A stretch of DNA of 27,357 nt from a virus. The notes below the pieces were generated by a model. The model was not told the origin of the DNA. It searched no databases and saw only the letters and a list, made by a program, of their open reading frames with translations. The stretch is from the UHGV virus genome UHGV-0082481; one strand, written 5' to 3'. Of the stretch, positions 3,622 through 27,337 are shown piece after piece; position 1 is the stretch's first letter, and the number at the start of each line of letters is the position of its first letter. The position numbers and the translations under genes were made by a program.

Positions 3622-3967
3622 TCTCTGCTCCTGTTGATACGGAAAGGGACACAGGCACACCGTTATTCCGCCGCCCGGTCAGCTCCACCACCATTGAACC
3701 GTCAAAATTGCTGTTGATGGTGATGGAATCCAGCGTCAACCGTGGCTCCCAGCGACTCAGCGCCACATACACTGCCGACATGACCTGCAGGCGTAATGCC
3801 GGATTTTGTGGCTGATCTATCAGTGCCGACAGCAGGGAACCATATTCCCGGCGGGCAATACGGCTACCCTGCGGTGTCAGCAGAATGTCCCGCACCGACT
3901 GGCGCAGATGATCAATATCAGTAATGACTTTGCCGCTGGTATTGTTCATCCCGCTATAAAGCGTCAT
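3608..3967 (-). CDS. W: Baseplate wedge protein (P2 gpW-like)
   Basis: 119-aa ORF, size and position (between V and J) as for gpW; ATGA overlap with the V stop. Confidence 0.85.
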   Translation of the reverse strand: MTLYSGMNNTSGKVITDIDHLRQSVRDILLTPQGSRIARREYGSLLSALIDQPQNPALRLQVMSAVYVALSRWEPRLTLDSITINSNFDGSMVVELTGRRNNGVPVSLSVSTGAENGSD

Positions 3968-4557
3968 ACCGGGCCTCCGGTTGTATCGCCGCCTTTCAGG
4001 ACGCCAGTATGCTGATGCGCATCAACCACGATCCCGTTAGAACTCATCGCTCCGCCGCCCTGGGTAACGCCACCATTGATCACCACTTCGCTGTTAATGC
4101 GCGTGCGGTCAGCCTCCAGTACAAACTCACTGGTTTTCATGGTGATGTTGTCAGCAGCCTCAATGACCATTGATTTGATGCCCCTGACATACCAGCGCCC
4201 GGTGGCGGGTTCGTATTCAAACCAGCCACCGTCAGGATGTTCTGTCACGCAGGCGTCCGCCGACGTCGACGGTGGTGCGAACTGATTCGAATAGATGGCG
4301 GGCAGCGCAAACGCGGTTTCCAGATTGCCGCCCATGCTCAGCACCACCACCTGCTCATCTGGCGACGGGCACCACCATGTACGGGCACCACCGGCGCGTA
4401 GCGTCAGCCAGTTAATCCAGTTGGTTTCAAGCTCGCCTACCTTCACCCGGCACAGCCATTTGTTCCGGTCCACTTCGGTCACAATGCCGGTGCGGATCAG
4501 ATTGGTGATAAGGCGCATAATTTCTGTGAGTTGTGCGTTCATGGTTGCAGTTTGCAT
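3964..4557 (-). CDS. V: Baseplate spike/hub protein (P2 gpV-like)
   Basis: 197-aa ORF, first gene of the V-W-J-I-H-G tail operon; the true start may be a downstream Met (4542 or 4518). Confidence 0.8.
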   Translation of the reverse strand: MQTATMNAQLTEIMRLITNLIRTGIVTEVDRNKWLCRVKVGELETNWINWLTLRAGGARTWWCPSPDEQVVVLSMGGNLETAFALPAIYSNQFAPPSTSADACVTEHPDGGWFEYEPATGRWYVRGIKSMVIEAADNITMKTSEFVLEADRTRINSEVVINGGVTQGGGAMSSNGIVVDAHQHTGVLKGGDTTGGPV

Positions 4558-4574: not shown

Positions 4575-6443
4575 GTGATTTTCAAATTGTATGAAGGGTC
4601 TTACAATCCAATGAATTACAATGAAGAGCTAACCTCATATCTTAATTATTTAGTGGATCTTGAAAAATCCCCTAATTTCGCAGTAATGATTGACGGCGAA
4701 TGGGGAAGCGGGAAAACATGGTTTGTCCGTAAATTAATGAATGAAGAATCACTAAAAGGGAAAGTTAAGCCATTAATGATCTCATTATATGGAATAAAAT
4801 CCACCGAACAAATTGACGAAATAATTTTCAAGCAAATGCATCCCTTCCTTTCATCTAAAGGCATGTTGCTTGCTGGCACACTAACTAAGGCACTAATTAA
4901 AGGCACACTTAAGATTGATTTAAGTGATTCATTCGTTACAAGTGTAGAGGGCTCCCCAGAACTACCCAACGTAAGCATTAAAGACTTTTACTACTCACCA
5001 GAAAACACCATATTGATATTTGATGATCTTGAACGCTGCGAATTAGATTGGAATTCTATATTTGGTTATATAAATAATTTCGTTGAAGAAAAAGAATGCA
5101 AGGTTTTGATTATCGCCAATGAGAGAGAAATATTAAACCCCGCTAGAAATAAAAATCATGATGGTATTTATTTAGATGCAAAAGAAAAAGTTATAGGTAT
5201 AACTTTCAAATATCAACCTCAACATTCTCACGCCTACGAATATTTTCTAAAAAATATAACTAGCGAACTCAACACCATTCTGAACATAAAAAATATTGAG
5301 AGCTTACTCACTCTTTCAGAGTGTAATAACATTAGATTAATTGAAAGGCAAATTTCTTTTTTTGAAAGAATATTCAAAATATTACCAGCACAGTTTCAGC
5401 AAAATTCAGATTTGACACTCAGATTATATCAATTACATTTTATACTCTATTTTGAATCTAATAAAATAAAACGAACCGTTTCTGACTTGTTAACATATAA
5501 AATAGATGATGATAATAAATACACATCCAATTTAATTGAAAAATATGGTACAACTTATTTGTCAAATTTAATCTTAGACGAGGATACCTGGATCGATATA
5601 ATTGACAATCAGAAAATCAATCAAGAAAAAATAATATCTGAATTAATAACATTCGTCAGTGTTTCTAATAAAACAATTGAGCCATGGACACAACTTTGGA
5701 ATTATGATCGATTAAAATACACAGAATTTGAGGAAAATTACAATTCAACACTTCATACGCTTATTAATTTTGAAATATTGAACGAGCATGTTCTTAAGCA
5801 TATTTACGGATTATTACTTCATTTATCCAGAGAACATATAAAACCCATCAACGAACACTATTTAACAAACTTAGCCCACTCTGCTGTTGATATTTTAGCA
5901 GAAAAAGGAATGATACAAACTAGTTATGAAATTTTTGATGAAGACATTAAGGATGAGCGATGGAGAGGATTAACTTTTCATTGCAAAGAAACTAGGGAAT
6001 TCAAGGAGCTTGTTAATTACATAGAACAAAAGAAAAATGTATTAATTGCATATCAACTTAGCCAAGACGCTCAAAAGATATTCAAATTAATACAGTCCGG
6101 AAATCATGAATATTACGCACATCTAAATTTCAACAACAAAGATATTTATTCATTTCACGACAAACCAGTTCTTTATTTTGGTGATGCTGAACAACTAACA
6201 AAAATACTGATAGACTCAACCGAGATGCATTTCTTTGGCTATGCTATAAAAAACCGATACAACAACACCCCTTATCTAAAAGAGCTTTCTGCAGAGCGTT
6301 TTTTCCACCGCGAGCTAATTAGAAAGCTAATTGAAAAGAAAACTCAAATAAACTCAAATATATTATCATTACAAATCGATGAGCTCATAAATGATTGTTT
6401 AACTCCCGCAATAGATAAATTAAAGCAAAGCATTGAAAATTAA
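4575..6443 (+). CDS. KAP-family P-loop NTPase (accessory/moron gene)
   Basis: 622-aa ORF (GTG at 4575; alternative ATG at 4611), strongly AT-rich against GC-rich flanks; Walker A GEWGSGKT (GxWGxGKT) and Walker B-like ILIFDDLER are the KAP NTPase signatures; sits in the S-V intergenic slot, opposite in orientation to the flanking structural operons. Confidence 0.75.
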   Translation: MIFKLYEGSYNPMNYNEELTSYLNYLVDLEKSPNFAVMIDGEWGSGKTWFVRKLMNEESLKGKVKPLMISLYGIKSTEQIDEIIFKQMHPFLSSKGMLLAGTLTKALIKGTLKIDLSDSFVTSVEGSPELPNVSIKDFYYSPENTILIFDDLERCELDWNSIFGYINNFVEEKECKVLIIANEREILNPARNKNHDGIYLDAKEKVIGITFKYQPQHSHAYEYFLKNITSELNTILNIKNIESLLTLSECNNIRLIERQISFFERIFKILPAQFQQNSDLTLRLYQLHFILYFESNKIKRTVSDLLTYKIDDDNKYTSNLIEKYGTTYLSNLILDEDTWIDIIDNQKINQEKIISELITFVSVSNKTIEPWTQLWNYDRLKYTEFEENYNSTLHTLINFEILNEHVLKHIYGLLLHLSREHIKPINEHYLTNLAHSAVDILAEKGMIQTSYEIFDEDIKDERWRGLTFHCKETREFKELVNYIEQKKNVLIAYQLSQDAQKIFKLIQSGNHEYYAHLNFNNKDIYSFHDKPVLYFGDAEQLTKILIDSTEMHFFGYAIKNRYNNTPYLKELSAERFFHRELIRKLIEKKTQINSNILSLQIDELINDCLTPAIDKLKQSIEN

Positions 6444-6483: not shown

Positions 6484-6927
6484 TTATGAAATACAATATA
6501 TCAAAAATCTCTCAACTTCTTTTTTAATAGGCTCATTAATACCTAGCAAGCATCGTCTGGAATAATGAACTATCGGCCCACGTTTACTGACACGATCACG
6601 CAGTCCATAATGGTGAACACGGGCAATGCGCTGCACCTTACCTTCAAACTGCACGCTGGCAGAATCGGCGCTGGCGGCAGTTTTCAGGTATTTTGTGGTG
6701 CGCAGCTTCGCAAACATCTGACGTTTGATGCGGCCTTTTTTACTGCGCGCTGTTACCCGTCGCGGCTCATAACTACTGCCATCTGGATTGCGCTGCATCC
6801 TGATGTTTTGCTGCTGTGTCCGGCGCAGCTCCTGTGCCAGTTGGCGCATCATGCGACTTCTTGCAGCTGGCTCCAGATTCGCCAGTAAGGCACTCAGCCA
6901 GTCGTCCACTTTCTGCAATTCAGCCAC
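6484..6927 (-). CDS. S: Tail completion protein (P2 gpS-like)
   Basis: 147-aa ORF, conserved position after R; overlaps the R stop by 8 nt; the last ~18 codons are AT-rich unlike the rest of the gene. Confidence 0.85.
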   Translation of the reverse strand: MAELQKVDDWLSALLANLEPAARSRMMRQLAQELRRTQQQNIRMQRNPDGSSYEPRRVTARSKKGRIKRQMFAKLRTTKYLKTAASADSASVQFEGKVQRIARVHHYGLRDRVSKRGPIVHYSRRCLLGINEPIKKEVERFLIYCIS

Positions 6928-15276: not shown

Positions 15277-16545
15277 TTAATTTGGCAACTCCAAATCATC
15301 CTTTAGATCTTTGATATCTTGATGTTGCAACCATATTAGGAAGCCTTTATCAACAACATTCAGTTTCCTATTTGTTTGGTCATAATCCAAAATAATAGGC
15401 ATTATATTTTTCTTTATTTGCAAAGACGCCGTTGATTGTAACGACTGAGTAACATTACCCAGGTTTAACTTCTCCCCTCTTGGATGTACACTTTGTAATA
15501 TTGCCCTTATATCTTTAAATTTCAAACCTAATTCAAGTTCACTAATGGTTGATGAAAGGACAGGATATAAAATCCATTTATGCATTTGAAGTTCAGTATC
15601 TTGAAATCCATCTGAAAAATTAATAAGGAAAGAATTGTAACGAGCCGATTGGTCATTAACAATTTTTGCAATGATATCCTTTCCATCCAAACCAGCTCCA
15701 ATAGTTCTTTTTGTTTGCTGAGTCTCTGATATTCCGCATTCAATACACGCACGCCTACATGCTTCTTGCACTAAATAAATACTATTGAGACAGTGTGTTA
15801 CTACATCTGCTTTGAAAGTTGGATCAAAATCAATGTTAAGGAGTAAACCTCCTTTATCAATTGCCATCTCCAGTTCAGAATCTTGCCATTTGTCTGCGTT
15901 AACAGAAATAATCCTGCCAGTTAAGTCACCATTGTAAACAATGAGCCGATTATCTTCTAGCCAAACTCCAACAATTACAAAAATAATGCTTGATGTTTCA
16001 TGAAAGGCTTTTAATGCGATCGAAAAATCTCTTTGAGTTTCGAAAGGCATATAATGAAAATCCTCAAGAACGATAATCTTCTTGAAATTTATAGATTTTA
16101 AAGCCGCTATAACATCATTAACATCATCAACATCAATTTCTAAAGGCGCGGTTACTTGTTCATGAGATTTCGTATCTTCGATCTCGCCTCCGGCACTCGC
16201 CACAAAACCCAAAATAGAAGTTTTTATTGATGCGATTATTTTATTTTTCCCCGTAATACCTTTCTTGGTAGACTGAGTTATTTCGAATCCAGCTCTTTTT
16301 AAAATACTTGCATTCAATTCAGATACATCAGAACGATTCGAACACTGCACCAAAATATAATCATCAGAATTAATACAGTGTTTTCTTACGCAAGTCTTAC
16401 CCTGCTTTGAACTGCCGTAAATAACAATATGTTTCTTTGCTTGTAATTCCTGTTTAAGTTTGAAATCAACATCAGGTCTTTCAATGTAATTAAGTGGCAA
16501 ATCTCTTGAGAGCCCAAAGATATCATTCGTATCAAAAATTTCCAT
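15277..16545 (-). CDS. P-loop ATPase of unknown function (accessory/moron gene)
   Basis: 422-aa ORF, strongly AT-rich; Walker A GSSKQGKT and Walker B-like KIIVLEDFH; convergent with Q, lying between the portal gene and the candidate cos/accessory region. Confidence 0.7.
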   Translation of the reverse strand: MEIFDTNDIFGLSRDLPLNYIERPDVDFKLKQELQAKKHIVIYGSSKQGKTCVRKHCINSDDYILVQCSNRSDVSELNASILKRAGFEITQSTKKGITGKNKIIASIKTSILGFVASAGGEIEDTKSHEQVTAPLEIDVDDVNDVIAALKSINFKKIIVLEDFHYMPFETQRDFSIALKAFHETSSIIFVIVGVWLEDNRLIVYNGDLTGRIISVNADKWQDSELEMAIDKGGLLLNIDFDPTFKADVVTHCLNSIYLVQEACRRACIECGISETQQTKRTIGAGLDGKDIIAKIVNDQSARYNSFLINFSDGFQDTELQMHKWILYPVLSSTISELELGLKFKDIRAILQSVHPRGEKLNLGNVTQSLQSTASLQIKKNIMPIILDYDQTNRKLNVVDKGFLIWLQHQDIKDLKDDLELPN

Positions 16546-17021: not shown

Positions 17022-17447
17022 ATGAAAAGCTTTTACGTATTAATTTTAATTCTGGTTGCAAGCTTTGTTAGCGTCCCAGTTCAGGCGGTAACAGCTAAAA
17101 ACTATGAGAAAGGAACTAAAGCTCAACAGAAATCAATATCTTACCTTTCATGTGCATTCTATGGCAGTAGCACACAATTAGATCCTAGCTACACGGGGCA
17201 AGTACCTACAGCCGATATCAAGATATTACAGAAAGCAGCTTACCACGCTTACAACGATGCGCTCTCATACTTTGGCTATGAGGAACCAGATCACGAACAA
17301 CGCATAATTGATTATGCTGAATTTGTGGCGTCGCAAGAAGCTGTGTTATGGGATAAGCCGGGAATGAATGGAAAGCAGGTAACACTAATTGCTCGTTCTC
17401 TCTACAATGAGAGTAACTGTAACTTGTTACTGGACTCAATTAAGTAG
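17022..17447 (+). CDS. Small secreted protein of unknown function (accessory gene)
   Basis: 141-aa ORF with a typical signal peptide (MKSFYVLILILVASFVSVPVQA), GAGG about 8 nt upstream of the ATG, AT-rich; opposite in orientation to the flanking phage genes. Confidence 0.6.
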   Translation: MKSFYVLILILVASFVSVPVQAVTAKNYEKGTKAQQKSISYLSCAFYGSSTQLDPSYTGQVPTADIKILQKAAYHAYNDALSYFGYEEPDHEQRIIDYAEFVASQEAVLWDKPGMNGKQVTLIARSLYNESNCNLLLDSIK

Positions 17448-18077: not shown

Positions 18078-18097
18078 CACTGTTTATATTTACAGTA
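18078..18097. promoter_or_regulatory. LexA (SOS) box
   Basis: caCTGTttatatttACAGta fits the CTGT-N8-ACAG consensus with an AT-rich spacer; an overlapping half-site TACTGTATATA lies just upstream (18063-18073). Confidence 0.7.
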
Positions 18098-18189: not shown

Positions 18190-20604
18190 TTAATACAGCT
18201 CCCGCCACTTATCATCTTCCTGCAAACGCTGGTTCCGATAGAAGATACGCAGGCCTGCTCCTGACGGAATACTGCCGCCGCGAAGGAGTAAATCGACTTC
18301 TTTCTCGCTGCCATCAAATCCTCTGGACTTCAGTTCATAGACGAGCTGCTGTCGCTGATGGTCTGTAATTCGCTGTTTGTAGTCTTTACGCCGTTTCGGT
18401 TTCACCAGGCGTAACCTTGCAGCCAGTTCCCGGCGCTCTTTTTTGCTCATACTGTGCAGGTAATCGTGCAACTCCTTGTCATCCATGCGGGTGATATCCG
18501 TTCTGGTATCTCCATCAGCTGATTTGTCTTTCCCTTGTTGGTACAAATTTTCAGCAAGGGGACAGTTATTGCCACGAGTCCAAGGGGCGCAAGCGCCCTG
18601 GTCGGCTGCCGCCTCCTGAACGTCAACGGCCTTACGAACCATTTTCCACTTCACGGCATGAGTGCAGATTTTGCCCTCTGCAATGGGTGACCAGATGCCA
18701 TAAATACGAATGCCGTGATCGCCATAGGCGGTCGGCTCTTCGTTGATTTCATAAGCGGTTCTGATGAGGTGATATTTACGGGGAACCAGTACGCCGCCCT
18801 GCTTCATGATGTAGGTGGCAAAACAACCAGCATCAGCTGCAGCCAGAATGGCATCAAGGCGCGGGTTATCCAGTACCGGCGCACCTGCTTTTTTGTCACC
18901 CTGTTGCCTTGCCGCCTGACCAGCCAGCAATCGCAGTTCACGGTAAGCCTGACGCCCCGGAATGCCAAAGAAGCGGAATTGCTGAACACGATGCAGAGAC
19001 GCCCAGGCATTAACGTATTCAGCGTTATCACGCAGAGATTTACCCGTTTCCTTGCTGATCTCGCCAGCCAGACCACGCCCGTCAATGTTCTTACTGATGT
19101 ATTTCGCGATGTAGCTAGTCGGCGTTCCTTTGCGCGGGTTTATCAGCTCAGACTTAAAGCGTGGCCCCGTGTTATTACCCAGCTCCTCGCGGTCTTCACG
19201 GATAGCAAACTTACGCAACAATGCAGTAATGGCGCGGCGGTCTTTTTTGCGCATGAAACACAACAGGTGCCAGTGAACTGTGCCGTCATGATGCGGCTCA
19301 GCCACCCGCACGCCATACCAGCGCAACCCGGCTTTGTGCATCGCCTTACGAAATGCAGCAAACATGCCGACCAGATAATCGCTGCTTTGTCTTACCGTCG
19401 CGTTTGTCCAGGTCGGGTTTGGTCTGCCGTTATTTAGCGTGGAATGGAAACGCGACGGACAGGTGATAGTGTAGAAAACGGCGCAGTCACCGCGCATTTC
19501 CGCGATAAGCTCCAGACCTTTAACACAGGCCATCATCTCATTGCGGCGATGCGCAGGGTTGCTGCTGCTGGCGTTTACCACATCCTCCATGTCCAGCGTG
19601 TCGCCGTCTTCGTTCACCAGTTCATGAGAACGGAAAAACTCCAGCGACTTACGGCGCTGCTCACGTTTATGCATCACGGCTTCATAGCTGACATAAGGAG
19701 ATGCTTTTTTGCTGACCAGGCAAACAGCGCGCAACTGCTCTTCCCGCCATTCGCAACGCATCTTCCATAATTTCCGATACCACCAGTCGGCGCACAACAT
19801 ACGCGCCAGCGAACCCGGAATGAGTTCATAGGGCACGGGTTTACGGCGGTTTCTTTTCCGACGGAGTTGCTCAAACGCAGGTGGGATGACATCCAGACGC
19901 AGGGTTTCCGCTGCCACCTTTTCCCATGTCTTGCGGATTTCTTCTGGCTTAACGTCATCGGTGGCATACAAATCACCACAAGCTGCATCAAGGCACATAC
20001 TCATATGCGCAGCTACCAGGGTGGATAGGCGTTTCACCTGATCCTGACTCATTTCAGGCAGGATCAGCAGACCGTCCAGCCCTTCATGGCTTGCCATAAA
20101 GCGAAAAGAAGTGGATAGCTGACTGTCGCGTACATGCTCCAGTCGTTCCAGACATGGCTTAATCGTCTCACGCAAATAGCGGGAATAAGCCTTTGGCCTG
20201 CCCAGGCTGCTGAAGTATTCAATACGTTGCATCAGCGGCTTGCTGATATGGGAAGGCTGGGCGTTGACGTCCGCCAGAATGACCATATCCGGATTAAAAC
20301 GCTGCTGCTCATGCGCCAGCTTTGCCCGACTAATGAGCTTATCCTGTTCCATTTCGCGCTGGACAGGATCACGGGATTCATTAAAGAAATAACGCTCCCA
20401 GACCTGATCACTCAGCGCCTCACGGCGCAGCTGTTCCTGCTCGTTATCGGCAGCGTACAGAGTGATCAGGTTTGAAAGCGCAGAAACCGGCGCAACTTCC
20501 GCCGGGTCCAGATAAGGGTTAATGGCCTTTTTCGGGCTGTTCCATGAGAATGCTGCGGCGACCTCGTTAAAGCCGCTGCAGTTGTTCATATCAGCATGGC
20601 TCAT
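18190..20604 (-). CDS. A: Replication initiation protein (P2 gpA-like rolling-circle endonuclease)
   Basis: 804-aa ORF, size and position as for gpA, last large gene of the early operon. Confidence 0.85.
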
Positions 20605-23597: not shown

Positions 23598-24542
23598 ATG
23601 TCAACTCAAAAATTCACATTTCGCCATATGGATGACGATATGAAAGCCGTTGTCATACAAAATCGTGGTGGTCAGAAAGTAATCGAACGGATACTCATGG
23701 CTTATGGCTTCAAGTCACGCCAAGCATTCTGTAACCATCTAGGTATTTCCCAAAGCACGATGGCTAACAGATATGCCCGCGATACATTTCCTGCAGATTG
23801 GATTGTTATCTGCTCACTGGAAACAGGAGCATCAATTAAATGGCTAGCATTTGGTTCAGATGATGACGAACAAATGCCATCCCCTTCACCAGAACAGCAT
23901 GTTGAAACACACTCCGAAGATGGTTCTTATCATGATGTTCACTATAAACAACCAAAGTTCGACAATGAAAACATCATTGATTATTCTCGGGGTGGCAAGG
24001 AAGCAATAGAGCGAATTGTTAGGGCTTACGGTTATAAGACTCGCCAAGCCTTAGCTGATCACTTAGGTATTTCAAAAAGCACATTAGCCACAAGATATAT
24101 GCGTGATGTTTTTCCTTCAGACTGGATAATTAAGTGCGCTCTCGAAACGGGTACTTCACTAATGTGGCTAACTACTGGTAAAGGCCCAAAGTTTGACGAT
24201 GCAAGAAATGATGTAATTGCTATTACTCACAAAAAAATTACTGACGGGAATCTATTTGATTCAAATTTCTATATGCTTGATAAAGCGTTACTACCAGACT
24301 CAATCCAATTACCATTGATTGTTAGCACCGAAAAAAAAACCTACCTATGTAATCAATCATTCGATGAAATTACAGATGGTAAATGGATTGTTAAAATAGA
24401 AGGGAAAGTGAGCATTCGAACCCTAACTAGAATACCTGTAGGAAGATTAAAAATTTCAGACAATGATTTATCATTTGAATGTAAAATTTCAGATATTGAT
24501 GTTATTGCAAAATGCAAATTTATTCTGATAGAAGAATTATAA
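23598..24542 (+). CDS. cI: Immunity repressor, 186 CI-type, with tandemly duplicated N-terminal DNA-binding domain
   Basis: 314-aa ORF divergent from apl/cII; two copies of a CI-type HTH module (IERILMAYGFKSRQAFCNHLGISQSTMANRYARDTFPADWIVICSLETGASIKWL and IERIVRAYGYKTRQALADHLGISKSTLATRYMRDVFPSDWIIKCALETGTSLMWL) plus a ~120-aa C-terminal domain; AT-rich. Confidence 0.75.
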   Translation: MSTQKFTFRHMDDDMKAVVIQNRGGQKVIERILMAYGFKSRQAFCNHLGISQSTMANRYARDTFPADWIVICSLETGASIKWLAFGSDDDEQMPSPSPEQHVETHSEDGSYHDVHYKQPKFDNENIIDYSRGGKEAIERIVRAYGYKTRQALADHLGISKSTLATRYMRDVFPSDWIIKCALETGTSLMWLTTGKGPKFDDARNDVIAITHKKITDGNLFDSNFYMLDKALLPDSIQLPLIVSTEKKTYLCNQSFDEITDGKWIVKIEGKVSIRTLTRIPVGRLKISDNDLSFECKISDIDVIAKCKFILIEEL

Positions 24543-24554
24543 AAGGATATTGGA

Positions 24555-25532
24555 ATGAGTGGTTCTGATTATAAAAGTAATAGTGAAAAATACACGTCTA
24601 GAAGTATTAAATTAGGAGAATTAAAATCACATTTAACTAATGACACCTATAATACTTTGAAAACCCTATTGGATTCTCTAGCGTTTGATGAATTCGATAT
24701 GCTATTTGATGCTTACAGTCGAAATTTTTCTAAAAAAGAATATAAGTATGCCCCCTTCATGTCCGACCATACATCATTGCAAAACAGTGAAGTAGATAAG
24801 TACCTTTTAAAAATTGAGGAATTAGAACATAAACTACGTGAGTTTCAAAAAAGCCATAACGCTCATTCAGAGCAAATGGAAAAGTTGAAAATGGAATTAT
24901 CAAATGAAATAGAAAGTAAAGAAAAAATAGTATCACAGCTAAAAGACCAACACATCAAAAACAAAGAACTACAGTTTAAAAACCAAGAACTTTCAAGCAA
25001 AATTCAACAAAAGAAAATTGACGAAAAGGTTCCTGAATATGTGCAAGGCGTCAAAGCAAAACTACAGCAGGACGATAAAGACTTCACTACAATGTCTTAC
25101 AATTGGGCGATAGCCGGAATACTATTTTCATTATTATCTATAAGCGCCGCCTTTTTAACATTTTTTTATAAAATCGATATAAAAGATACTACCACCATTG
25201 AACTTTTTTATTATTTCACTCGGGGCTTACTTGGGGTTGCATTACTTTCTTGGCTTTCTTATTTTTGTTTAAACAATTCAAAAAAATACACACATGAAGC
25301 AATCATAAGAAAAGACAGACAACATGCTCTAATGTTTGGTGAGGTCTTCTTACAAATTTATGGTTCAACTGCAACAAAACAAGATGCTATTGATGTGTTT
25401 AAAGATTGGAATATGTCAGCTAATTCTGCATTCGCAGATAAAACGCAGCCACCTCCAAATTTATTTAACATTTTAGGCTCACTTGTAGATAAAAAATCAG
25501 CCGCAAATGATGACATCATTACCAAAAAGTGA
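24555..25532 (+). CDS. Membrane protein of unknown function, co-oriented with repressor and integrase (candidate lysogenic-conversion/exclusion gene)
   Basis: 325-aa ORF 13 nt after the cI stop with AAGGA RBS; strongly AT-rich; charged helical region (residues ~80-170), two hydrophobic segments (WAIAGILFSLLSISAAFLTFFY and GLLGVALLSWLSYFCL), then a ~90-aa C-terminal domain. Confidence 0.65.
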   Translation: MSGSDYKSNSEKYTSRSIKLGELKSHLTNDTYNTLKTLLDSLAFDEFDMLFDAYSRNFSKKEYKYAPFMSDHTSLQNSEVDKYLLKIEELEHKLREFQKSHNAHSEQMEKLKMELSNEIESKEKIVSQLKDQHIKNKELQFKNQELSSKIQQKKIDEKVPEYVQGVKAKLQQDDKDFTTMSYNWAIAGILFSLLSISAAFLTFFYKIDIKDTTTIELFYYFTRGLLGVALLSWLSYFCLNNSKKYTHEAIIRKDRQHALMFGEVFLQIYGSTATKQDAIDVFKDWNMSANSAFADKTQPPPNLFNILGSLVDKKSAANDDIITKK

Positions 25533-25613
25533 TGATGTATGACAACATGTATCTAATACATTGACACTGGTTATACATACAGTAAAAATGCTCTCCACTG
25601 GAGGGCATTTTTT

Positions 25614-26666
25614 ATGGCAGTACGAAAACTCACCACAGGAAAATGGCTTTGCGAATGTTACCCCGCCGGACGTAGTGGGCGTCGTGTGCGTAAACAATTC
25701 GCCACCAAAGGCGAAGCACTGGCTTTTGAGCGTCACACGATGGAAGAAACCGAAGCAAAGCCCTGGCTGGGTGAATCAGTGGATCGTCGAACACTGAAAG
25801 ACGTGGTTGAGCTATGGTTCAAACTACATGGTAAATCTCTGACAGCTGGGCAGCATGTCTATGACAAATTGCTGTTGATAGTTGACGCTCTGGGCAATCC
25901 CCTTGCAACCGATCTCACATCTAAAATGTTTGCCCACTATCGAGATAAACGCCTGACAGGTGAGATCTATTTCAGCGAGAAATGGAAAAAAGGAGCAAGC
26001 CCGGTCACTATTAACCTGGAGCAAAGCTATCTAAGTAGTGTTTTTAGCGAACTATCCCGCCTGGGCGAATGGTCGCATCCGAACCCACTGGAGAACATGC
26101 GAAAATTCACTATCGCAGAAAAAGAGATGGCATGGCTTACCCATGAGCAGATTGTTGAATTGCTGGCTGATTGCAAACGTCAGGACCCAATTCTGGCACT
26201 GGTAGTTAAGATATGCTTAAGCACAGGCGCACGCTGGCGTGAAGCCGTAAATCTTACCCGCTCACAGGTGACTAAATACCGAATTACCTTTGTCAGAACG
26301 AAGGGGAAGAAAAACAGAAGCATCCCTATCAGTAAAGAGCTTTACGAAGAGATCATGGCGCTTGATGGGTTCAATTTCTTTACAGACTGCTATTTTCAAT
26401 TTTTATCCGTGATGGAAAAAACGTCTATCGTGCTCCCTCGCGGTCAACTCACACACGTTCTGCGCCATACGTTTGCGGCGCACTTCATGATGTCGGGTGG
26501 AAACATCCTGGCCTTACAAAAAATTCTCGGACATCACGATATAAAAATGACGATGCGTTACGCACATCTGGCACCGGATCATCTGGAAACGGCGCTCCGT
26601 TTCAATCCTCTGGCAACGCTGCCAAGTGGCGACAAAGTGGCGGCAGCGGTTGGCATTACCCCGTAA
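25614..26666 (+). CDS. int: Tyrosine integrase (P2/186 family)
   Basis: 350-aa ORF; N-terminus MAVRKLTTGKWLCECYPAGRSGRRVRKQFATKGEA typical of P2-family integrases; C-terminal catalytic region HVLRHTFAAHFMMSGGNILALQKILGHHDIKMTMRYAHL with the conserved Arg/His/Tyr residues. Confidence 0.9.
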   Translation: MAVRKLTTGKWLCECYPAGRSGRRVRKQFATKGEALAFERHTMEETEAKPWLGESVDRRTLKDVVELWFKLHGKSLTAGQHVYDKLLLIVDALGNPLATDLTSKMFAHYRDKRLTGEIYFSEKWKKGASPVTINLEQSYLSSVFSELSRLGEWSHPNPLENMRKFTIAEKEMAWLTHEQIVELLADCKRQDPILALVVKICLSTGARWREAVNLTRSQVTKYRITFVRTKGKKNRSIPISKELYEEIMALDGFNFFTDCYFQFLSVMEKTSIVLPRGQLTHVLRHTFAAHFMMSGGNILALQKILGHHDIKMTMRYAHLAPDHLETALRFNPLATLPSGDKVAAAVGITP

Positions 26667-26770: not shown

Positions 26771-27337
26771 CTACCCTGCAACCCTCTCAACCATCCTCAA
26801 AATCTCCTCGCGCGATAGCGGCTTACGGTCGGTGACAAAATGCAGCGTCATCCCCTCAATAAACGCATCAAGCGCGCGGGCGGTTCCGGGTTCAAACCAT
26901 TGTTCGAGCGTTTGCTGACTGCGCTGCATCCAGTTTTGCATTACCGTTTTTAATAGCGGTTTTCGGCTAGCCAGCGCGTAGAGCTGGTACATCAGCTCCA
27001 TGTTATCCGGCGTTGCAACCTGTGAGCTGTAGATCATATCGGTGATAGCCTGGCATGCGCCCGGAGCATCACTAACATCGCTAAAAAATGCCTGATATTG
27101 CCGGGACATGATCTCAGTAAAACTGCTGAACGCCTCCAGTAACAACTCATCAATTCCTGAAAAATAGTAGGTCATCGATCCCAACGGTACCCCGGCAAGG
27201 GTAGCAATTTTGCGGTGCGTAACAGCATGTATTCCGTAAAGTTTCACCGCCTCCAGCGTGGCCTGGATAATTTTTTCTCGCCGTTGCGGATCGTTAGCGC
27301 GACGCATGTCATTTCCTCTCTCTGCAATTGTGTACAA
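26771..27337 (-). CDS. TetR-family transcriptional regulator (probably host chromosomal flank)
   Basis: 188-aa ORF with N-terminal TetR-type HTH ([40 protein letters not shown]); convergent with the integrase; composition unlike the AT-rich phage accessory genes. Confidence 0.8.

What the first reader, a model, noticed from the sequence alone, without database searches (positions are those of the whole stretch)
24555..25532. AT-rich membrane protein gene inserted between repressor and integrase in the lysogenic operon
The gene starts 13 nt after the cI stop and precedes int on the same strand, so it is positioned to be expressed in the lysogen. The protein has a Lys/Glu-rich helical region, two transmembrane helices and a C-terminal domain, which is the architecture seen in superinfection-exclusion and membrane-depolarising abortive-infection effectors. 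It has no obvious role in lysogeny itself.
Basis: partly seen in the sequence, partly recalled or inferred. Interest (0 to 1): 0.7.

Follow-up and report, generated by a model that had tools for sequence, protein, structure and literature searches.

The report
Uncharacterised membrane gene in prophage defence slot
A P2/186-like E. coli prophage carries, right after its repressor gene, a two-pass membrane protein of an undescribed family. Its membrane module is fused to TIR immune domains in other bacteria, and it sits in a slot that related prophages fill with known anti-phage genes, so it is a good but untested candidate anti-phage gene.

Summary
A 325-aa ORF (24555-25532, GC 0.32 against 0.49 for the window) starts 12 nt after a CI-family gene and ends 81 nt before int. 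The protein has a small helical N-domain, a long coiled coil, two transmembrane helices and a highly conserved C-terminal cytoplasmic domain.

It matches PHROG 2628 (function unknown) and nothing real in Pfam, NCBIfam, PADLOC or the PDB.

- In 48 of 51 homologue loci the gene lies immediately after CI (typically 9-14 nt) in 186-like prophages of Enterobacterales.
- At least 154 of 5,426 complete E. coli genomes carry a member.
- In sister prophages the same CI-int slot holds a P2 Old homologue, PD-T4-2, PDC-M11, an AriA-like ATPase or a PifA-like KAP NTPase. The slot is therefore a defence hotspot.
- Residues 148-323 are homologous (hhalign 99.4%, E 4e-21) to the C-terminal half of a large family of TIR-domain proteins.

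Best reading: a lysogen-expressed membrane effector that acts against superinfecting phages, more likely triggered abortive infection than a constitutive entry block. No function is shown. I rate it a new variant of a known kind, of moderate interest.

The parts
23598..24542 (+). CI-family repressor gene, long form. 314 aa: an extra N-terminal HTH, a linker, then a complete CI.
   Evidence: Pfam Phage_CI_repr matched twice (5e-58) and Phage_CI_C once (2e-31).
24543..24554 (+). 12-nt spacer with an AAGGA Shine-Dalgarno. No terminator lies between CI and the ORF.
   Evidence: Sequence; terminator scan. The spacer is typically 9-14 nt (median 11) in the 48 homologue loci that have an upstream CI.
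24555..25532 (+). ORF325, a two-pass inner-membrane protein of PHROG 2628.
24555..24779 (+). Residues 1-75: a small three-helix N-terminal domain plus a disordered linker. This is the most variable part of the family.
   Evidence: AlphaFold helices 4-22, 29-40 and 44-60; pLDDT below 50 over 62-75. Variability in alignment A2. dN/dS 0.48-0.63. No PDB sequence match.
24780..25028 (+). Residues 76-158: a long Lys/Glu-rich helix, probably a coiled coil.
   Evidence: A single helix over 76-158 with pLDDT 86-97. Only coiled-coil proteins match in Pfam, NCBIfam and the PDB.
24996..25523 (+). Residues 148-323: the conserved module (juxtamembrane helix, TM1, TM2, C-terminal domain). It is shared with TIR-fused proteins.
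   Evidence: hhalign A2 against A6: probability 99.4%, E 3.6e-21, 176 columns. Alignment A4. Profile search.
25104..25172 (+). TM helix 1 (residues 184-206).
   Evidence: Kyte-Doolittle 19-residue windows up to 2.2. Helix 161-204 in the model.
25200..25274 (+). TM helix 2 (residues 216-240), with family-invariant R223 and G224 and a conserved Leu/Ser/Trp/Tyr/Cys face.
   Evidence: helix 214-269.
25275..25457 (+). Residues 241-301: the highly conserved cytoplasmic C-terminal domain (KKYTHEAIIRKDRQHALMFG...VFKDWNMS..SAF...PP).
   Evidence: Invariant across 63 distant members: H257, A258, G262, F282, W285, F293. dN/dS 0.10-0.25.
25561..25589 (+). Promoter-like element TTGACA-17-AAAAAT upstream of int. 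A LexA-box-like CTGGTTATACATACAG (25567-25582) lies between the hexamers. This marks the conserved right border of the cargo slot.
   Evidence: Promoter scan. Conservation in A5. 40 of 42 distinct related sequences keep CTG[TG]N8ACAG. Homology to cargo-less prophages resumes at about 25528-25558.
25584..25612 (+). 13-bp hairpin followed by a T run. Its 3' arm is the int Shine-Dalgarno GGAGGG. It is a likely attenuator or terminator of the CI-cargo transcript and masks the int RBS.
   Evidence: RNA fold of 25533-25630: -28.5 kcal/mol, z -4.45. A hairpin is kept with different stem sequences in related loci.
25614..26666 (+). P2-type tyrosine integrase.
   Evidence: Pfam Int_N 9e-32 and Phage_integrase 7e-22. 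Followed by host rcdA at 26771-27337.

Best explanation
ORF325 is accessory cargo of a P2/186-like (Peduoviridae) prophage. It occupies the variable slot between the immunity repressor gene and the conserved int-upstream element.

It is most likely transcribed and translated together with CI in the lysogen. Its product is an inner-membrane protein with both ends in the cytoplasm. The parts are a variable N-terminal helical domain, a coiled coil about 80 residues long, a TM hairpin, and a strongly conserved C-terminal domain about 85 residues long.

I think it protects the lysogen against other phages as a one-protein sensor-effector. The variable N-domain and coiled coil would hold the protein in an inactive oligomer and respond to an infection cue. 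The conserved 2TM-plus-C-terminal module would then perturb the membrane, and the infection would abort.

Shown: the anatomy, the family, the position, the hotspot nature of the slot, and homology of the module to TIR-fused proteins. Inferred: expression in the lysogen, anti-phage activity, and the membrane-permeabilising, triggered mechanism.
For: 1. Position. The gene lies 12 nt after CI with no terminator between. The same tight arrangement appears in 48 of 51 homologue loci from E. coli, Enterobacter, Yersinia, Brenneria, Dryocola and others. In phage 186, int lies downstream of cI on the leftward transcript (PMC7708051).

2. The slot is a defence hotspot. Between CI and the conserved int-upstream element, sister prophages at the same rcdA site carry one of the following:
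- a P2 Old homologue (PADLOC 1e-233);
- PD-T4-2 A+B / NsnA;
- PDC-M11 A+B;
- an AriA/OLD-like ATPase;
- a KAP NTPase, PDC-S20 / PifA-like;
- only a 63-aa ORF.
A cI-int hotspot was reported for Vibrio K139-like phages (PMC9122126). In P2-like phages 8% of defence systems lie between integrase and primase (PMC13586616).

3. Domain fusion. The profile search found 427 clusters. Of 63 sampled members, 13 have TIR_2, 6 TIR, 3 ThsB_TIR, 2 CAP12-PCTIR_TIR, 2 EAD11 and 2 DUF4062. TIR_2 sits at residues about 3-115 in the proteins checked. hhalign of the phage family against the TIR family gives 99.4%, E 3.6e-21 over residues 148-323. One TIR-fused relative lies beside an OLD-like TOPRIM ATPase and a HEPN protein.

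4. Evolutionary pattern. The N-terminal half is variable and mosaic, while the TM and C-terminal module is strongly constrained.

5. Composition. GC is 0.32 in a prophage backbone of roughly 0.52-0.62 GC. The prophage's two other AT-rich islands also carry PADLOC candidate defence genes.
Against: - No experiment exists, and there is no homology to any characterised defence, exclusion or abortive-infection protein. PADLOC gives only coiled-coil noise.
- Pfam, NCBIfam and the PDB give nothing specific.
- The gene always takes the first position after CI, and extra cargo is added downstream of it. That could mean a function tied to CI or lysogeny rather than defence.
- dN/dS is below 1 everywhere, so there is no direct sign of an arms race.
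- The periplasmic loop is only about 10 residues. This argues against some exclusion mechanisms but does not argue for a pore.
- Structure models are of moderate confidence (pLDDT 73-77, pTM 0.35-0.57), and structural matches are generic helical hairpins.
- No isolated phage in INPHARED carries the gene.
Confidence: 0.45

Rival explanations
1. Constitutive superinfection exclusion. The membrane protein blocks genome entry of incoming phages, especially related P2/186-like phages that CI immunity does not cover, without killing the cell.
For: The protein is predicted to sit in the inner membrane. It is probably expressed with the repressor in the lysogen. From my own knowledge, classical exclusion genes lie near immunity or integration genes, for example K139 glo. 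[quoted passage not shown]
Against: Almost all of the protein is cytoplasmic, and the periplasmic loop is about 10 residues. Homologues of the module are fused to TIR, EAD11 and DUF4062, which are typical of triggered cytoplasmic immune proteins. The most conserved part is the cytoplasmic C-terminal domain.
Confidence: 0.2
2. Not an anti-phage gene. It is a lysogen-expressed membrane protein that serves the prophage or host in another way, for example by modulating CI activity or induction, sensing envelope stress, or changing host physiology or virulence.
For: It always takes the first position directly after CI, with a spacer typically 9-14 nt, across genera and with both short and long CI types, while other cargo is added downstream. 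It is widespread in clinical E. coli, including CFT073. No defence-database hit was found.
Against: Only about 14% of E. coli prophages with this int type carry it: at least 154 of 1,134 genomes. It is therefore dispensable for lysogeny. It is replaced by bona fide defence genes in the same slot. TIR-fused relatives point to conflict systems. No DNA-binding or regulatory domain was found.
Confidence: 0.17
3. One component of a two-gene system with a KAP P-loop NTPase. The NTPase would be the sensor and the membrane protein the effector.
For: In L022, L045 and L052 a KAP NTPase gene follows the homologue, 20-215 nt downstream. KAP NTPases occupy the same slot alone in L002. The window itself holds a KAP NTPase (PDC-S49) at 4575-6443.
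Against: 38 of 46 loci have no gene between the homologue and int. No shared adaptor domain between the N-terminus and any of the KAP proteins was detected; BLASTP E-values are all above 0.3. The window's KAP gene is 18 kb away on a separate insertion.
Confidence: 0.06
4. A toxin-like addiction or stabilisation function. The membrane protein would be toxic unless kept low by CI-operon regulation, penalising loss or induction of the prophage.
For: Small membrane-hairpin proteins are often toxic. The gene is tightly coupled to the repressor gene.
Against: No antitoxin candidate was found. Minus-strand and overlapping ORFs are short and unconserved, and Rfam finds no RNA. The protein is large, with a conserved cytoplasmic domain. 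TIR-fused relatives stand alone with no conserved neighbour.
Confidence: 0.05

Closest known systems
Phage lambda rexA-rexB (abortive infection, co-transcribed with cI)
   Same: The gene is placed directly downstream of the immunity repressor in the lysogenic transcription unit. It encodes an inner-membrane protein expected to act on the membrane when another phage infects. This comparison rests on established knowledge of lambda.
   Different: No sequence relation was found; the PADLOC scan gave no Rex hit. From my own knowledge, RexB has four TM helices and needs the cytoplasmic sensor RexA. ORF325 has two TM helices and large cytoplasmic domains, and is a single gene.
SLATT 2TM effector domains (CBASS effectors; Thoeris type VII ThsH)
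   Same: Both have two TM helices followed by a conserved helical cytoplasmic part. Both are associated with TIR domains, by fusion in relatives of ORF325. [quoted passage not shown] Five of the top 50 BFVD structural matches are annotated SLATT.
   Different: No SLATT model is among the Pfam matches listed for this protein or for relatives of both families, or in the precomputed domains of the 240 proteins listed. The structural matches are not significant (E 0.3-0.8). ORF325 has no linked nucleotide synthase.
Defence hotspots of P2-like phages and P4 satellites (Rousset et al. 2022; the 2026 NAR study PMC13586616)
   Same: Both show variable AT-rich cargo between conserved phage genes, and known defence genes occupy the same slot in sister prophages. 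A cI-int hotspot was noted for Vibrio K139-like phages. An integrase-primase region holds 8% of P2 defence systems.
   Different: The main P2 hotspot is between gpA and gpQ. The CI-int slot of E. coli 186-like prophages, and this protein family as a frequent occupant, are not described in the papers I could read.
F-plasmid PifA / KAP NTPases (PDC-S20, PDC-S49)
   Same: They are alternative or additional occupants of the same slot.
   Different: They are unrelated proteins. ORF325 has no P-loop.
Vibrio phage K139 Glo
   Same: An accessory gene of a P2-related phage, associated with resistance of lysogens to K139-family phages (PMC4870250). From my own knowledge it lies between the repressor gene and int.
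   Different: Glo is described as periplasmic, whereas ORF325 is a mostly cytoplasmic two-pass membrane protein. I did not test for homology because no Glo sequence was at hand.

Membership tests
PHROG 2628 (phage protein family, function unknown) | Significant full-length match to the family HMM | tested here: met
   E 3.3e-71, 241 bits, protein residues 104-319 against profile 101-309 of 314.
SLATT (SMODS and SLOG-associating 2TM effector) | Match to a Pfam SLATT model | tested here: not met
   No SLATT model is among the Pfam matches listed for the protein (E up to 0.1). None appears among the 25 most frequent of 35 families matched by 63 family members. None appears in the precomputed Pfam domains of the 240 relatives listed.
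SLATT (SMODS and SLOG-associating 2TM effector) | Two TM helices followed by a conserved cytoplasmic helical region | tested here: met
   TM segments 184-206 and 216-240, then helices 241-269, 275-292 and 303-318.
SLATT (SMODS and SLOG-associating 2TM effector) | Fold similarity to SLATT proteins | tested here: inconclusive
   Foldseek against BFVD: five SLATT-annotated proteins among the top 50, but E 0.3-0.8 and TM-score 0.24-0.45. Nothing significant in the PDB. The AFDB library was unavailable.
SLATT (SMODS and SLOG-associating 2TM effector) | Genomic or domain association with nucleotide-signal enzymes (SMODS, SLOG, TIR) | tested here: inconclusive
   Relatives of the module are fused to TIR. 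ORF325 itself has no such domain or neighbour.
Lambda Rex system | Sequence homology to RexB and presence of a RexA partner | tested here: not met
   The PADLOC scan at E up to 1 gave only LeoBC and DruC coiled-coil noise. The only neighbours are CI and int.
Lambda Rex system | Located downstream of the repressor gene in the same transcription unit | tested here: met
   12-nt spacer, same strand, no terminator predicted. This is a positional analogy only.
Prophage defence-hotspot cargo (P2-like phages) | The same slot between conserved flanks holds different genes in related prophages | tested here: met
   L002, L004 and L060-L064 compared with the window. Conserved right border.
Prophage defence-hotspot cargo (P2-like phages) | Alternative occupants include recognised defence genes | tested here: met
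   Old 1e-233, PD-T4-2_A 2e-55 and _B 1e-8, PDC-M11A 2e-130 and M11B 5e-48, AriA 5e-23, PDC-S20 6e-78 / PifA 1e-16.
Prophage defence-hotspot cargo (P2-like phages) | Measured protection against phages | not testable with these tools
   Needs plaque and infection assays.
TIR-domain immune proteins | Presence of a TIR domain | tested here: not met
   No TIR match in ORF325. Only the C-terminal module is shared with TIR proteins.
DUF2207_C (PF20990) | Score at or above the gathering threshold (33 bits) | tested here: not met
   17.4 bits for ORF325. The best relative, P0044, scores 30.2 bits.

The most novel reading that the evidence does not exclude
The conserved juxtamembrane-helix, 2TM and C-terminal module (residues 148-323) defines a previously undescribed family of immune membrane effectors. 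It is SLATT-like in plan but separate in sequence. Diverse bacteria fuse it to TIR, EAD11 or DUF4062. P2/186-like prophages fuse it to a fast-evolving coiled-coil sensor and wire it into the repressor operon, giving a single-protein abortive-infection system.
Probability: 0.35. Interest if true: 0.65.

Novelty: new variant of a known kind. Interest (0 to 1): 0.5.

Why it matters
If the gene protects lysogens, it would add a new single-gene membrane effector family to bacterial immunity. The family is present in roughly 3% of complete E. coli genomes, including the model uropathogen CFT073, and is related to hundreds of TIR-fused proteins in other phyla.

It would also establish the CI-int slot of 186-like prophages as a productive place to look for new systems. 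Several of its other occupants are also unannotated.

The fusion pattern gives a direct experimental handle. One can swap the N-terminal domain (coiled coil or TIR) on a constant membrane module and ask what triggers it. None of this overturns current ideas; it extends them.

Tried and rejected
- **Family libraries.** Pfam, NCBIfam and PADLOC scans of ORF325 gave only coiled-coil or TM noise.
- **PDB by sequence.** A profile search gave coiled-coil proteins only. The N-terminal 80 residues matched nothing.
- **Isolated phages and plasmids.** tblastn against INPHARED phages found no match. Plasmids gave only six, mostly distant, matches.
- **Adaptor idea.** I asked whether the N-terminal domain is shared with neighbouring KAP NTPases, as effector-associated domains are. 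BLASTP found nothing.
- **Conserved partner idea.** I asked whether TIR-fused relatives have a conserved partner gene. Neighbours in four contexts are unrelated.
- **Positive selection.** dN/dS is below 1 in every segment.
- **Linkage to the long CI.** 18 of 48 loci have a short cI, so the long two-HTH CI is not an obligate partner of this gene.
- **RNA genes.** The Rfam and tRNA scans of the window found nothing.
- **Wasted search.** One Pfam call went to the roughly 410-aa relatives, which have no recognisable N-terminal domain except one MgtE_N match.

Full report
**What the window is.** The window is most of a P2/186-like (Peduoviridae) prophage of E. coli, integrated next to rcdA. At the right end the order is CII (PF06892), an Apl/Cox-like gene, a CI-family gene, the ORF in question, a P2-type integrase, and then host rcdA. 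The nearest record is E. coli SA53-3, 99.9% identical over CI-ORF-int. Klebsiella phage 4LV2017 (Peduoviridae) shares the integrase region and has the same long CI.

**Observation.** The ORF is real.
- It spans 24555-25532 and encodes 325 aa. GC is 0.319, against 0.487 for the window. A stop-free frame of that length is very unlikely in such AT-rich DNA.
- It has 135 relatives at E up to 1e-3 in the 5.8-billion-protein collection. It matches PHROG 2628 at 3e-71.
- It is under purifying selection against close relatives (dN/dS 0.34-0.45).
- The upstream gene stops at 24542 and the spacer is 12 nt with an AAGGA ribosome-binding site.
- Two hydrophobic segments (184-206 and about 216-240) are separated by about 10 residues.

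AlphaFold2 with a 45-sequence alignment gives an all-helical protein. It has a three-helix N-domain (4-60), a disordered linker, and one long helix over 76-158 with pLDDT above 90. A juxtamembrane helix runs into TM1 (161-204). TM2 runs into a cytoplasmic helix (214-269), and two further helices follow. There is no signal peptide and 180 residues precede TM1, so both termini should be cytoplasmic (inference).

**The family.** Alignment of 45 members shows three features:
- a highly variable N-terminal half;
- a conserved juxtamembrane motif (QQxRIDEKIPxYVxxVKxKL);
- a very conserved stretch after TM2 (KKYTHESIRRKDRQHALMFGQVFLQIYGSTATKEDAIxVFKDWNMSGDSAFSDKTExPP).

dN/dS follows this split. It is 0.46-0.63 in the N-domain and coiled coil, and 0.10-0.25 in the TM and C-terminal parts. 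Some E. coli prophages match the window at about 88% DNA identity only from 25209 onward. That region is the C-terminal part of the gene plus int, so the gene is mosaic. At least 154 of 5,426 complete E. coli genomes carry a member detectable by blastn, including CFT073. No isolated phage in INPHARED does.

**Context of homologues.** I fetched 49 loci from genome and IMG/VR collections and mapped CI, Apl, CII, int and KAP on them.
- In 48 of the 51 homologue loci mapped (these 49 plus L001 and L003), the homologue lies directly downstream of a CI-family gene. The spacer is typically 9-14 nt, median 11.
- 30 of those loci have a long CI and 18 a short one.
- In 38 of the 46 loci where int was mapped downstream, int follows 79-155 nt later.
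- In eight loci, 0.9-2 kb of further genes sit between the homologue and int. These include a KAP NTPase in three loci.
- Three Chimaeribacter loci have the gene without phage neighbours.

Many loci are near-duplicates, so these are not independent counts. The arrangement nevertheless holds from 37% to 86% protein identity and across several genera.

**The slot is a defence hotspot.** Prophages at the same rcdA site with the same int differ in what lies between CI and a conserved int-upstream element:

| Locus | Cargo between CI and int |
|---|---|
| L004, L005 | only a 63-aa ORF |
| L002, E2348/69 | KAP NTPase (PADLOC PDC-S20, also PifA 1e-16) |
| L062 | P2 Old homologue (1e-233) |
| L061 | PD-T4-2 A+B / NsnA |
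| L063 | PDC-M11 A+B plus an unknown gene |
| L064 | AriA/OLD-like ATPase |
| L060, phage 4LV2017 | unannotated genes: a 349-aa protein, followed in L060 by a 201-aa one |

Homology between the window and cargo-less prophages resumes at about 25528-25558, just after the ORF stop. Published work names a cI-int hotspot in Vibrio K139-like P2 relatives (PMC9122126). It also reports that 8% of defence systems of P2-like prophages lie between integrase and primase (PMC13586616). The kind of locus is therefore known. This protein family as an occupant is not mentioned in what I could read, and accession and family-name searches found no paper.

**Remote homology.** A profile of the family, run against 1.84 billion representative proteins, found 427 clusters, 254 of them at E below 1e-10. 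I scanned 63 members against Pfam:

| N-terminal domain | Members (of 63) |
|---|---|
| TIR_2 | 13 |
| TIR | 6 |
| ThsB_TIR | 3 |
| CAP12-PCTIR_TIR | 2 |
| EAD11 | 2 |
| DUF4062 | 2 |
| MgtE_N | 2 |

- In seven proteins checked individually, TIR_2 covers residues about 3-115 above the gathering score, and the match to our profile starts right after it.
- These belong to a large family of proteins of about 318 aa found in, for example, Pseudomonas and Paenibacillus.
- Profile-profile comparison of the phage family with this TIR family gives probability 99.4% and E 3.6e-21 over 176 columns. The match covers residues 148-323 of ORF325 (alignment).
- Residues invariant across both families are L170, E248, R255, H257, A258, F261, G262, L266, G270, F282, W285, N286, F293 and P301.
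- PADLOC recognises only the TIR part of these relatives and has no model for the module.
- In four genomic contexts the TIR-fused gene has no conserved neighbour. One lies beside an OLD-like TOPRIM ATPase and a HEPN gene.

EAD domains and TIR are hallmarks of conflict systems. EADs are by definition attached to effectors (Kaur et al. 2020, PMC7159879, and my own knowledge). This is the strongest argument that the 2TM-C module is an immune effector part.

**Comparison with SLATT.** The plan matches what is described for SLATT: two TM helices, a conserved helical cytoplasmic part with basic residues, and association with TIR (PMC7159879; bioRxiv 10.64898/2025.12.03.692087). No Pfam SLATT model is listed for any member. 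A model of residues 140-325 (pLDDT 77) has no significant PDB match. In BFVD, five SLATT-annotated proteins appear among the top 50 hits, but at E 0.3-0.8. I therefore say it works like a SLATT-type effector might, but I do not file it as SLATT.

**Transcription architecture (partly inferred).** No terminator lies between CI and the ORF. After the ORF comes an element conserved in all related prophages, with or without cargo. It has three parts:
- TTGACA-17-AAAAAT (25561-25589);
- a LexA-box-like CTGGTTATACATACAG between the hexamers;
- a 13-bp hairpin (25584-25612) followed by a T run, whose 3' arm is the int Shine-Dalgarno.

Of 42 distinct related sequences, 40 keep CTG[TG]N8ACAG. Nearly all keep a hairpin, although the stem sequence differs. 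My reading is as follows. The CI-cargo transcript forms the hairpin, which attenuates transcription and masks int translation. A transcript started at the internal promoter would lack the 5' arm and so could be translated. This fits cargo being the last gene of the lysogenic unit, but it is untested. In phage 186 itself, int is read from the leftward transcript.

**Mechanism.** Putting these together, I favour a lysogen-expressed, single-protein sensor-effector that aborts infection through the membrane (confidence 0.45). The rivals are:
- constitutive exclusion of DNA entry (0.2);
- a non-defence lysogen function tied to CI (0.17);
- a two-gene system with a KAP NTPase (0.06). Against this, 38 of 46 loci lack one, and BLASTP finds no shared adaptor;
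- an addiction toxin (0.05).

The fixed first position after CI is the main observation that the defence reading does not explain.

**Verdict.** This is a new, uncharacterised family filling a known kind of role in a known kind of locus. It is of moderate interest, mainly because of the link to TIR-fused proteins and the ease of testing.

Noticed in passing
window 23598-24542; L002 2381-3924; L060-L064: The 'cI' is a 314-aa CI with an extra N-terminal HTH domain and linker in front of a complete CI. All five sampled E. coli prophages with this long CI but without the membrane gene carry other cargo right after it, recognisable defence genes in four of them. L002 (and probably E2348/69) has a normal short cI, then a long CI, then a KAP NTPase. 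The two cargo-less prophages have the short cI. The long CI may travel with cargo or add a second immunity. The sample is small.
   Followed up: partly
window 25561-25613: A conserved int-upstream element: a sigma-70-like promoter with a LexA-box-like site (CTGGTTATACATACAG, 16 of 20 matches to the E. coli consensus) between its hexamers. It is followed by a hairpin whose 3' arm is the int ribosome-binding site. The box is kept in 40 of 42 distinct related sequences, and the hairpin is kept with different stems. This suggests SOS-controlled int expression insulated from the CI transcript.
   Followed up: partly
window 18080-18095: A second, perfectly palindromic LexA-box-like site, CTGTTTATATTTACAG, just beyond the replication gene (18190-20604, minus strand). 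It probably belongs to a tum/p95-type SOS promoter as in phage 186.
   Followed up: no
window 4575-6443 (+): An AT-rich (GC about 0.29) 622-aa KAP-family NTPase matching PADLOC candidate PDC-S49 (1e-134). It is inserted on the opposite strand between the baseplate gene V (3964-4557) and the virion morphogenesis gene (6484-6927). The closest relative, SA53-3, has no insertion there.
   Followed up: partly
window 15277-16545 (-) and 17022-17447 (+): An AT-rich island between the portal gene and the replication gene, which is the classical P2 gpQ-gpA hotspot. It holds a 422-aa AAA-type protein matching PADLOC candidate PDC-S59 (5e-72) and a 141-aa ORF with no match.
   Followed up: partly
L005 5270-6498: In E. 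coli AH04 a Panacea-domain gene and a 251-aa hypothetical gene lie between int and the att site next to rcdA. This is a second cargo position at this end of the prophage.
   Followed up: no
L032 4012-6013; L033 6552-8553: A 2-kb insertion between the membrane-gene homologue and int carries a 495-aa ORF on the opposite strand. It was not identified and may be a mobile element. It replaces the left part of the conserved int-upstream element.
   Followed up: no
L010-L012 (Chimaeribacter), H119: Homologues of the membrane protein (353-408 aa) stand alone, without CI or int nearby. One is on a 352-kb plasmid.
   Followed up: no
L057 1942-6951 (Paenibacillus kribbensis): A TIR-fused relative of the module sits in an apparent defence island with a HEPN_RiboL-PSP gene and an OLD-like TOPRIM/AAA ATPase.
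   Followed up: no
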